Of a stretch of DNA of 12,551 nucleotides, positions 284-1,588 are shown piece after piece. The notes below the pieces were generated by a model. It did no database searches. It was not told where the DNA came from and worked only from the letters and a program-made list of their open reading frames with translations. Each line of letters begins with the position of its first letter. Position 1 is the stretch's first letter. A program made the position numbers and the translations under genes. The DNA comes from Promethearchaeota archaeon (GTDB taxonomy: Archaea > Asgardarchaeota > Thorarchaeia > Thorarchaeales > Thorarchaeaceae), in the NCBI GenBank assembly GCA_048939765.1, contig JBHLPF010000064.1, positions 1-12,551 on the forward strand, given 5' to 3'.

Positions 284-1588
284 ATGAAGGTCCCTGGAAC
301 AACCATGGACATAAGTCTAAAGACAGATAGAATATTCGCCGTTGACCAAGGAGTCATGAAGCGAATTAAATACGCTGGTCGGACCTTCATGGAAGTTCTC
401 GAAGAGCTTCAAAGATTCGCGTATCTAAGGGGGTACAATGCTCCGACTACTATACTGAAGTTTATTCTCAAACGAATTGGTCTTCCTGATGTTGATGTAT
501 TTCCCTCTGAGGATGTTCTTACAAAGGAGGACCTCGTCGAACTTTCCAAAGCACTTAATGTGGTTGATAGCCTCAAGGATGAATTCCTATCTGCGACGCC
601 GGAACCCATAGTACCTGAGGATCTAAAGAATTACGTTGTCATAAAGTCGAAGCAATCAGACGACTTCACCCTAGAAGGTATCACACCGGAGCACGTCAAA
701 CCGGCAGAAGTGATACCCGAAGCTCCTATAGAGGCAGAGGCGTCTACGGAAGCTCCGTTTGATAGATCCTCTATCTGGGATGATGTGCCTCAGAGTGAGG
801 AAGCCGTGAAACTAATCTATAATTTCCACTGGGAGAATCTTCCAGTAAATACCCCTACACCTAGAACCATGTCCTCTGAAGAACAAGAACCCAAGAAACC
901 GAAGTTCATTTGGGATGATGAGGGTGAGATGGAGTCTCTGGAGGATGTCAGACCAACTGAGGAGCCAGCTCCCGAACTACTCGGAGACTCTCATGAGCTG
1001 AAAACCCTGTTCCTTGGAGAAGCACAAGTAGGTGTGAAAAGCATACTCTTTGAATGCAATCTCAAGGAGGCAGAGGATCTATCCTATGTGTATCGAGATG
1101 TTATACAGCATGAGGACAATCTTGTCGGTATGAATGTCTGGACCTTTGAAGGCTCGCAGGCCGCCAGAATCCCACGACAGGAGTTTTTCACGGGTACAGG
1201 AGTTGCGGTTCTAGTATACTCAGTAGCTGACCGATGGAGCTTCGATAGTCTTGATTTCTGGATTAAAGAACTGACCAGTGTCTTCTTGGTTCCACCTCCA
1301 ATTATTATTGTAGGGAACAAGACAGACCTTAGAGATCATCCGGTATACGGTGACGAGGAGGAGTTTGAGCCTCCAGTTACTACATCAGAGGGCGAAGAGT
1401 TCTGCAAGAAAATGGCAAATGAATTGGGTGAAAGCGGCGAAGCCCATCCAATAGTTTTCATGGAGACTTCCAGCATCACAGGTGCAGGTATCTCTGATCT
1501 ACTGGGCGCGATGATTGATCTTTGGTTGACAAGTGAGAGGCCAAGCATGCCGGCTGTTGAGTCGCATGTCATAAAACGTGAAGTGTGA
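284..1588 (+). CDS. Ras-superfamily (Rab/Rho-like) small GTPase-domain protein with long N-terminal extension; probable pseudoGTPase
   Basis: The C-terminal ~180 aa (from ~1001) follow small-GTPase topology: KTLFLGEAQVGVKS (G1 position), MNVWTFEG (G3 position), VAVLVYSVADRWSFDSLDFWIKEL (beta4-alpha3), PIIIVGNKTDL (G4), FMETSS (G5). The N-terminal ~100 aa look globular and are followed by an acidic Pro-rich linker. Alternative start: GTG 266. Confidence 0.88.
   Translation: MKVPGTTMDISLKTDRIFAVDQGVMKRIKYAGRTFMEVLEELQRFAYLRGYNAPTTILKFILKRIGLPDVDVFPSEDVLTKEDLVELSKALNVVDSLKDEFLSATPEPIVPEDLKNYVVIKSKQSDDFTLEGITPEHVKPAEVIPEAPIEAEASTEAPFDRSSIWDDVPQSEEAVKLIYNFHWENLPVNTPTPRTMSSEEQEPKKPKFIWDDEGEMESLEDVRPTEEPAPELLGDSHELKTLFLGEAQVGVKSILFECNLKEAEDLSYVYRDVIQHEDNLVGMNVWTFEGSQAARIPRQEFFTGTGVAVLVYSVADRWSFDSLDFWIKELTSVFLVPPPIIIVGNKTDLRDHPVYGDEEEFEPPVTTSEGEEFCKKMANELGESGEAHPIVFMETSSITGAGISDLLGAMIDLWLTSERPSMPAVESHVIKREV

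What the first reader, a model, noticed from the sequence alone, without database searches (positions are those of the whole stretch)
1001..1530. Candidate archaeal pseudoGTPase: phosphate/Mg motifs lost, guanine-recognition motifs kept
Seen: G1 is GEAQVGVK (1016-1039) rather than GxxxxGK[ST], so Lys becomes Val and Ser/Thr becomes Lys. Switch I is about 6 aa shorter than in Rab1 and has no G2 Thr. G3 is WTFEG (1139-1153) rather than WDxxG. G4 NKTD (1316-1327) is intact and G5 is ETSS. The ORF has no frameshift or internal stop and no C-terminal Cys prenylation motif. Established: the lost residues are needed for Mg-GTP binding and hydrolysis, and eukaryotic pseudoGTPases (e.g. CENP-M, dynein light intermediate chain, p190RhoGAP pG domains) act as scaffolds. 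Inference: this is a maintained, non-catalytic scaffold or an atypical nucleotide binder. The shifted Lys could substitute for Mg2+.
Basis: partly seen in the sequence, partly recalled or inferred. Interest (0 to 1): 0.72.

Follow-up and report, generated by a model that had tools for sequence, protein, structure and literature searches.

The report
Lysine-less Ras-like pseudoGTPase of Thorarchaeota
This Asgard (Thorarchaeota) gene encodes a strongly conserved two-domain protein whose Ras/Rab-shaped half has lost the residues that grip phosphate and magnesium and split GTP but keeps the guanine-reading motifs, so it most likely acts as a non-switching adaptor, probably with a neighbouring leucine-rich-repeat protein, rather than as an enzyme.

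Summary
The region is the C-terminal Ras-like domain of a 434-aa protein (window 284-1588, +). G1 reads GEAQVGVKS, switch I is short with no Thr, G3 reads WTFEGS, and NKTD and ETSS are intact.

This is not decay:
- 120 homologue clusters (43-95% identity, nearly all Thorarchaeota MAGs) all carry Val/Ile at the P-loop Lys position and Thr at the Asp57 position.
- dN/dS in the G domain is 0.03-0.08.
- The same genome has canonical small GTPases.

A tree places the Lys-less clade inside a Lys-keeping, Thorarchaeia-restricted family. That family shares an uncatalogued N-terminal domain, and this genome holds a Lys-keeping paralogue.

The gene is paired head-to-head with a 207-aa LRR gene, of which the window keeps only the first 24 codons at the contig end. 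It also lies tail-to-tail with a gene for a >3600-aa membrane-anchored surface protein.

Function is inferred, not shown. I read it as a hydrolysis-dead adaptor; whether it still binds guanine nucleotide is open.

This scan has reported the same family at least six times on other genomes. I found no paper that describes it.

The parts
284..1588 (+). Whole gene, 434 aa from ATG 284 (the ORF is open from GTG 266); stop codon at 1586-1588.
   Evidence: ORF list and translation. Homologues start at MKVPG/MQIPG, which corresponds to ATG 284. dN/dS over the whole gene is 0.06-0.10.
284..595 (+). N-terminal domain (residues 7-110 in ORF numbering): a three-strand sheet plus three helices, in no catalogued family.
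   Evidence: AF2 pLDDT is 83 for the domain folded alone. No Pfam or NCBIfam match. Foldseek E > 0.2; best VIA Z is 6.6, to a de novo designed protein; Atlas scores < 0.9. dN/dS 0.03-0.07. Found in 68 of 76 genomes of the window's own family (plus the window's own genome) and 1 of 1 of the sister family, and in 0 of 223 from the 28 other Asgard families searched.
596..985 (+). Acidic, Pro-rich linker predicted disordered, with three conserved Trp/Phe-acidic islands: SIWDDVP at 770-790, FHWENLP at 824-844 and FIWDDE at 905-922.
   Evidence: pLDDT 33-60. W171, F187, H188, E190, N191, P199, F214, W216 and D217 are invariant or at least 90% conserved. dN/dS 0.13-0.20.
986..1540 (+). Ras/Rab/Rho-like G domain (residues 241-425). 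This is the stretch the finding describes.
   Evidence: Pfam Ras 2.9e-13 and Roc 2.6e-7. Rab9A 4e-9 in the PDB sequence search. Foldseek and VIA matches. dN/dS 0.03-0.08.
1016..1042 (+). Degenerate G1/P-loop GEAQVGVKS. The glycine frame is kept, Lys16 is Val, and Ser17 is Lys.
   Evidence: G251, E252, V255, G256 and S259 are invariant. Position 257 is always V or I; position 258 is N, K or S.
1139..1156 (+). Degenerate G3 WTFEGS in place of WDxxGQ.
   Evidence: W292, T293 and F294 are at least 90% conserved. The Gly60 position is K, G or Q across the family.
1316..1327 (+). Intact G4 NKTD.
   Evidence: N, K, T and D are each at least 90% conserved; 105 of 121 clusters read NKTD.
1463..1474 (+). 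G5-like ETSS.
   Evidence: E400, T401 and S402 are at least 90% conserved.
1535..1570 (+). Conserved C-terminal tail motif ERPSMPAxExHV, where a Rab would carry its prenylated Cys tail.
   Evidence: E424, R425, P426, S427, M428, P429 and E432 are at least 90% conserved. No Cys is present.
5..76 (-). First 24 codons of the divergent LRR partner gene, cut off by the contig end.
   Evidence: tblastn with the 207-aa LRR protein of L001 gives 83% identity at window 76..5. The full gene sits in the same position in 19 related loci. Pfam LRR_8 3.6e-22.
77..283 (.). Shared divergent intergenic region, including the AT-rich stretch TTAATATGATATAATA.
   Evidence: Its part nearest the Ras-like gene (about the last 110 bases) is nearly identical in the window, L001 and L002. 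A promoter role is inferred.
1698..12551 (-). Convergent giant gene (more than 3617 aa, open at the contig end). It has LamG-type modules, a TM helix at 2904-2963 and a cytoplasmic tail of about 400 aa with SAP-like helical repeats.
   Evidence: Conserved downstream of the orthologues in L001, L002, L003, L006, L007 and L027.

Best explanation
The gene encodes a cytoplasmic, two-domain protein found so far only in Thorarchaeia. An uncatalogued N-terminal alpha/beta domain is joined to a Ras-like domain by an acidic linker with three conserved Trp-acidic islands.

The Ras-like domain is a pseudoGTPase. It has lost the P-loop Lys, the Mg-binding Ser, the switch I Thr and the DxxG Asp/Gly, so it cannot work as a Mg-GTP hydrolysing switch. 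It keeps the glycine frame of the P-loop, NKxD and ETS.

It arose by duplication inside a Lys-keeping family that already lacked DxxG. After the branch had become paired with a small LRR gene, the Lys was replaced once by a hydrophobic residue.

Inferred mechanism: the domain is frozen in one conformation and serves as a constitutive binding module. It probably acts with the divergently transcribed LRR protein, and possibly on the cytoplasmic tails of the neighbouring giant surface proteins.

Whether the guanine pocket is still occupied (Mg-independent, non-hydrolysed GDP/GTP or another guanine ligand) or empty is open, roughly 50/50.
For: Shown:
- Fold and motifs.
- The degenerate motifs are fixed in 121 clusters: Lys16 is always V/I and Asp57 is Thr in at least 90%.
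- Strong purifying selection: dN/dS is 0.03-0.08 in the G domain and 0.03-0.07 in the N-terminal domain.
- The same genome has canonical GxxxxGKT/WDxAGQ/NKxD GTPases, so the change is specific to this family.
- On a tree rooted with canonical GTPases, the two-domain family is one clade (98). The Lys-less clade (99) is nested beside the Lys-keeping P0137 and P0145 (96).
- Lys-keeping relatives share the N-terminal domain, and the own genome has such a paralogue on contig C86.
- The N-terminal domain occurs only in the Thorarchaeia order among 301 Asgard genomes searched.

Context:
- The LRR gene lies head-to-head in 19 of 19 orthologous loci that have enough upstream sequence.
- In 19 of the 22 genomes with a strong LRR orthologue it is adjacent to the Lys-less gene. 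The other three are split by contig ends.
- Giant LamG-type genes flank the pair in 18 loci.
- The LRR protein has no predicted TM segment, and neither protein has a defence-system match.
Against: - No biochemical data exist. Loss of hydrolysis and the adaptor role are inferred from established roles of Ras residues K16, S17, T35, D57 and G60 (textbook knowledge).
- NKxD and ETS are kept, which would be unexpected for an empty pocket. However, about a third of G-domain positions are equally conserved, so this does not prove ligand binding.
- Binding to the LRR protein or to the giant tail rests on gene order only. The complex predictor was not available, and no fused LRR-G form was found.
- In L004, an 88% orthologue locus, there is no giant gene downstream, so that link is not obligatory.
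Confidence: 0.6

Rival explanations
1. It is still a working nucleotide switch with a relocated basic residue. A Lys at the position after the lost one (K258 here), or at the Gly60 position of G3 (WTFxKS in most relatives), reaches the phosphates. This would parallel the relocated catalytic Lys of WNK kinases, and GTP would be bound and hydrolysed by a non-canonical route.
For: 108 of 121 clusters have a Lys at one of the two positions. The commonest combinations are Asn+Lys (69) and Lys+Gly (14). The glycine frame of the P-loop and NKxD are invariant or nearly so.
Against: Thirteen clusters have no Lys at either position. The P-loop trait changes only twice on the tree, so the pattern is clade history and not demonstrated compensation. 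Ser17, Thr35, Asp57 and Gln61 are also gone, leaving no Mg ligand and no catalytic Gln.
Confidence: 0.1
2. It is a constitutively nucleotide-loaded, non-hydrolysing G domain, in the manner of Rnd, RGK or the p190RhoGAP N-terminal domain. Guanine nucleotide would be a structural cofactor held without Mg. This is a sub-variant of the best explanation, not an opposite.
For: NKTD and ETS are kept over the whole family, and G251, G256 and S259 are invariant. The top structural matches include the RGK GTPases REM2, Gem and Rad at Z 17-18, although these are tied with KRAS and Rab. The p190RhoGAP precedent is described in PMC10211241.
Against: Loss of Lys16 strongly weakens nucleotide affinity in Ras-type proteins (established knowledge). 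The hydrophobic V/I at that site is invariant. Switch I carries a further 9-residue deletion in this subclade.
Confidence: 0.25
3. It is a decaying gene copy, or an annotation or assembly artefact with no function.
For: Three of the five G motifs are broken.
Against: The frame is intact, dN/dS is 0.03-0.10, and there are 120 homologue clusters with the same substitutions and conserved synteny.
Confidence: 0.01
4. It is a component of an anti-virus defence or conflict system built from LRR, GTPase-like and giant proteins.
For: LRR and NTPase-like modules occur in some immune systems (general knowledge). The giant flanking genes are variable.
Against: There is no PADLOC match for either protein. 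The locus is stably inherited within genera, with orthologous synteny. There are no nuclease or other effector domains.
Confidence: 0.03

Closest known systems
Canonical Asgard Rab-like small GTPases (Thor-Rab of SMTZ1-45, PDB 7EZB, PMC10933270; own-genome copies on contigs C77 and C49)
   Same: Same Ras-superfamily fold, with NKxD and ETS motifs and no C-terminal prenylation Cys. The 7EZB sequence matches at E 5.9e-7.
   Different: Thor-Rab binds GDP and has GxxxxGK[ST] and DxxG. This protein has V at Lys16, K/N at Ser17, T at Asp57, no switch I Thr, and an extra 240-residue N-terminal domain plus linker.
Lys-keeping two-domain paralogues of Thorarchaeia (own genome C86, L045 667-2202; P0124-P0152)
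   Same: Same N-terminal domain (E 1e-11 to 1e-40), an acidic linker, and a C-terminal G domain with NKxD, ETS and the DRWSF..DFW helix. DxxG is already replaced by WSFDxA, and Ser17 already varies.
   Different: They keep the P-loop Lys (GExxVGKxS). Only the intermediate branch (L053, L054) is paired with the LRR gene. The Lys-less clade is nested within them.
Eukaryotic pseudoGTPases (CENP-M, p190RhoGAP pG1/pG2 and N-terminal domain, Rnd, RGK; PMC10211241)
   Same: A GTPase fold with disabled G motifs, maintained by selection and used as a scaffold or allosteric module. The RGK proteins also lack a canonical G3 and G2, and they are among the top structural matches.
   Different: No sequence relationship beyond the superfamily, so the origin in archaea is independent. 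G4/G5 are kept while the P-loop Lys is lost, a combination not listed among the cases I could read. There is also a novel N-terminal domain.
LRR plus Ras-like modules (ROCO proteins such as LRRK2; SHOC2-MRAS)
   Same: An LRR module is functionally coupled to a Ras/Roc-like domain. Pfam Roc matches at 2.6e-7, and the LRR gene is a constant head-to-head neighbour.
   Different: The LRR is a separate gene, there is no COR domain, and the G domain is degenerate. Physical binding has not been tested.

Membership tests
Ras superfamily small GTPase (active switch) | Ras-like P-loop NTPase fold | tested here: met
   Pfam Ras E 2.9e-13. Foldseek Rab2B E 1.8e-10. VIA Z 18.1, rmsd 2.9 over 159 residues to REM2, with KRAS and Rab at 16.5-17.8.
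Ras superfamily small GTPase (active switch) | G1 Walker A GxxxxGK[ST] | tested here: not met
   The motif reads GEAQVGVKS. The Lys position is V or I in all 121 clusters.
Ras superfamily small GTPase (active switch) | G2 switch I Thr and G3 DxxG | tested here: not met
   Ala aligns to the G2 Thr of Rab9A. G3 reads WTFEGS, with Thr at Asp57 in at least 90% of clusters.
Ras superfamily small GTPase (active switch) | G4 NKxD and G5 [ST]A[KL]-like | tested here: met
   NKTD and ETSS are present, and both are at least 90% conserved.
Rab family | C-terminal Cys prenylation motif | tested here: not met
   The protein ends ...HVIKREV. There is no Cys in the last 50 residues.
Rab family | RabF1-F5 family motifs | not tested
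   Not examined. The best sequence and fold matches are spread over Rab, Rho, Ras and RGK.
ROCO proteins | Roc domain followed by a COR domain in one polypeptide | tested here: not met
   The Roc profile matches (2.6e-7), but there is no COR match and only 15 residues follow the G domain.
pseudoGTPase (as the term is used in PMC10211241 and the papers it cites) | GTPase fold with catalytic or binding motifs lost, yet evolutionarily maintained | tested here: met
   Fold confirmed. G1, G2 and G3 are lost. dN/dS is 0.03-0.08, and the motifs are fixed family-wide.
pseudoGTPase (as the term is used in PMC10211241 and the papers it cites) | Measured lack of GTP hydrolysis and/or nucleotide binding | not testable with these tools
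   Needs recombinant protein assays.

The most novel reading that the evidence does not exclude
The Lys-less P-loop still holds a guanine ligand without Mg or the canonical Lys, read by the intact NKxD/ETS pocket and the invariant glycine frame. The protein would then be a permanently "on" G-domain that docks the LRR partner onto the cytoplasmic tails of giant surface proteins. That would make it an archaeal, split-gene counterpart of the eukaryotic LRR-Ras modules (SHOC2-MRAS, ROCO), which evolved stepwise: DxxG lost first, then the LRR pairing, then Lys lost.
Probability: 0.15. Interest if true: 0.75.

Novelty: new variant of a known kind. Interest (0 to 1): 0.52.

Why it matters
PseudoGTPases are so far described almost only in eukaryotes. 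My searches of the paper library for pseudoGTPase together with Asgard found nothing.

[quoted passage not shown] The order of events in its history can be read from living intermediates:
- a Lys-keeping family that already lacked DxxG,
- a branch of that family paired with an LRR gene,
- the Lys-less clade within that branch.

It therefore offers a tractable case of how a Ras-like switch becomes a scaffold. It also points to untested partners: the LRR protein, the giant surface proteins, and a new N-terminal domain with Trp-acidic motifs.

The function is inferred only, and the scan has already reported the family on other genomes. This window mainly adds the evolutionary polarity, the phyletic range and the rejection of the shifted-Lys idea.

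Tried and rejected
- N-terminal domain: no Pfam or NCBIfam family. Foldseek against the PDB gave no match at E <= 0.001. VIA wide gave a best Z of 6.6 to a de novo designed protein, within the chance range the tool quotes. All ESM Atlas hits were below 0.9.
- Fused longer forms (771-2200 aa): none at E <= 1e-10, which is weak evidence.
- Lys relocation or compensation between the P-loop +1 position and the Gly60 position: only 2 independent changes on the tree, so no test is possible, and 13 clusters lack both Lys.
- Defence-system reading: no PADLOC match.
- Simple decay: rejected by dN/dS and conservation.
- Literature: six searches found no description of this family. The Thor-Rab paper (PMC10933270) deals with a canonical GDP-binding Rab.
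- L052, an intermediate locus of G236, contains a run of N. It reads as a false 609-aa frame and was set aside.

Full report
**What is there**

The window is a whole 12,551-base contig (C30) of a 3.37-Mb Thorarchaeota MAG that is 88.5% complete. The finding lies in an ORF at 266-1588 on the + strand. Homologues begin at MKVPG/MQIPG, so the likely start is ATG 284, which gives 434 aa.

- G1 GEAQVGVKS at 1016-1042
- G3 WTFEGS at 1139-1156
- G4 NKTD at 1316-1327
- G5 ETSS at 1463-1474

The HMMER alignment to Rab9A puts GEAQVGVKS on GDGGVGKSS. It shows a net six-residue shortening of alpha1/switch I, with Ala at the G2 Thr position. The protein ends ...IKREV with no Cys.

**Fold**

Pfam Ras matches at 2.9e-13 and Roc at 2.6e-7.

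An AlphaFold2 model built on 121 sequences shows three parts:
- an N-terminal domain (residues 6-107, pLDDT about 86-90)
- a disordered acidic linker (110-240)
- a Ras-like domain (243-422, pLDDT about 80)

The Ras-like domain matches Rab2B, Rab4B and RhoA by Foldseek at E about 1e-10. By VIA it matches REM2, Gem, KRAS and Rab at Z 16.5-18.1. These rows are tied, so no subfamily can be named.

**Is it decay?**

No. A search of 5.8 billion proteins gave 120 full-length homologue clusters at 43-95% identity. Nearly all named ones come from Thorarchaeota MAGs.

In the alignment:
- The Lys16 position is Val or Ile in every cluster.
- Asp57 is Thr in at least 90%.
- G251, E252, V255, G256 and S259 are invariant.
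- NKTD and ETS[ST] are at least 90% conserved.

Pairwise Nei-Gojobori dN/dS against seven orthologues (dS 0.2-2.8) is 0.03-0.08 in the G domain, 0.03-0.07 in the N-terminal domain and 0.13-0.20 in the linker.

The same genome encodes ordinary small GTPases with GDGAVGKTS, WDLAGQP and NKxD. The degenerate state is therefore a selected property of this family.

**The shifted Lys**

The residue after the lost Lys is Asn in 73 clusters, Lys in 38 and Ser in 9.

Most Asn forms carry a Lys at the Gly60 position of G3 (WTFxKS). This looks like a swap. However, the P-loop trait changes only twice on the tree, and 13 clusters have no Lys at either site. It remains untested for this subclade.

The short switch I is also specific to this subclade: the G1-G3 spacing is 33 residues in 14 clusters and 42 in 106.

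**Where it came from**

A full HMMER scan of 1.84 billion representatives with the G domain found a wider set of proteins of 400-490 aa (P0124-P0152, E 1e-22 to 1e-37). These proteins:
- share the N-terminal domain
- keep the P-loop Lys (GExxVGKxS)
- already have WSFDxA in place of WDxxG, and a variable Ser17 position

This genome has such a paralogue on contig C86 (511 aa; GEAGVGKRS, WSFDEAV, NKTD). It also has a 159-aa protein on C17 with only the N-terminal domain and linker islands.

A maximum-likelihood tree rooted on canonical GTPases gives:
- the two-domain family as one clade (SH-aLRT 98)
- the Lys-less clade as one branch (99)
- that branch nested with the Lys-keeping P0137 and P0145, and with P0123 (Lys to Met) (96)

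So the Lys was lost on that stem, inside a family that was already atypical.

The N-terminal domain was found in 68 of 76 genomes of the window's own family (f1; 69 of 77 counting the window's own genome) and in 1 of 1 of the sister family. It was found in none of 223 genomes from the 28 other Asgard families searched.

**The N-terminal domain**

It has no recognisable relatives:
- no Pfam or NCBIfam match
- no Foldseek match
- best VIA Z of 6.6, to a designed protein
- nothing in the ESM Atlas

**Context**

In the 90% orthologue locus L001, a 207-aa LRR gene (Pfam LRR_8, 3.6e-22) lies head-to-head 190 bp upstream. The window keeps only its first 24 codons (76..5, minus strand; 83% identity), because the contig ends there.

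The LRR gene is in this position in all 19 related loci with enough upstream sequence.

Across 86 genomes of the family, strong LRR orthologues (E <= 1e-88) occur in 22. All 22 also have the Lys-less gene. In 19 the two are adjacent; in the other three they are separated by contig ends.

The Lys-keeping intermediates L053 and L054 are also paired with an LRR gene, so the pairing predates the loss of Lys.

Downstream and convergent is a gene of more than 3617 aa. It has LamG-type modules, one TM helix (2904-2963) and a cytoplasmic tail of about 400 aa with SAP-like helical repeats. It is conserved in L001, L002, L003, L006, L007 and L027. Related giant genes follow the LRR gene in the other arrangement. 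In L004 the giant gene is absent, and the N-terminal-only paralogue lies there instead.

**Interpretation**

Loss of K16, S17, T35, D57 and G60, and of Q61, removes every Mg and gamma-phosphate contact known in Ras-type proteins (established knowledge). A Mg-GTP switch is therefore very unlikely.

Retention of the glycine frame, NKxD and ETS leaves the state of the guanine pocket open: it may be occupied or empty. About a third of G-domain positions are equally conserved, so these motifs alone do not prove ligand binding.

I commit to a non-switching adaptor that works with the LRR protein. Binding itself is inferred from gene order only, because the complex predictor was unavailable.

**Novelty**

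Six searches of the paper library found no description of this family. The Thor-Rab paper treats a canonical GDP-binding Rab.

This scan has already reported the same family on other genomes at least six times, with the same main conclusion. This report adds the rooted polarity, the Lys-keeping own-genome paralogue, the phyletic range, the finding that the LRR pairing predates the loss of Lys, and the rejection of the shifted-Lys idea.

Noticed in passing
window 1701-2963 (-): The giant protein ends with one TM helix (2904-2963) and a cytoplasmic tail of about 400 aa. The tail holds four helical repeats of about 44 aa of the form L[TS]xxE[LI]..[LM]R..L...G......I...[QK]A[RK].[LV]P. They are SAP-like (Pfam SAP E 0.004, below threshold). 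This is a candidate docking site for cytoplasmic partners.
   Followed up: partly
L046 1152-1631 (own contig C17); L004 2100-2579: A 159-aa paralogue has only the N-terminal domain plus linker islands (FKFHAENVP, FDWEEAP) and no G domain. In the 88% orthologue locus L004 it lies 0.7 kb downstream of the Lys-less gene, where this window has the giant gene.
   Followed up: partly
window 77-283: The intergenic region between the LRR remnant and ATG 284 is nearly identical in the window, L001 and L002 over its part nearest the Ras-like gene (about the last 110 bases), although coding dS is about 0.5. It includes the AT-rich stretch TTAATATGATATAATA. It may carry a shared divergent promoter or operator.
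   Followed up: no
window 770-790, 824-844, 905-922: Three Trp/Phe-acidic islands in the disordered linker (SIWDDVP, FHWENLP, FIWDDE) are invariant or at least 90% conserved across the family. They look like short linear binding motifs. Another first-stage note on this window flags them.
   Followed up: partly
L045 667-2202 (own contig C86): A Lys-keeping two-domain paralogue (511 aa) has GEAGVGKRS, WSFDEAV, NKTD and GTSC. It is itself atypical (no DxxG, Arg at the Ser17 position) and may be a second, milder pseudoGTPase.
   Followed up: partly
L017 and other loci of a second genus (P0074/P0112; G272 C87; G140 C6): In another genus the Lys-less gene is tandemly duplicated, with two copies about 1.4 kb apart. 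In this genus it is single.
   Followed up: no
L001 2-9079 (-): A second giant gene (more than 3000 aa, with a signal peptide and repeated DUF2341/LamG modules) starts 108 bp after the LRR gene on the same strand. The LRR gene and a giant gene may therefore form an operon divergent from the pseudoGTPase gene.
   Followed up: partly
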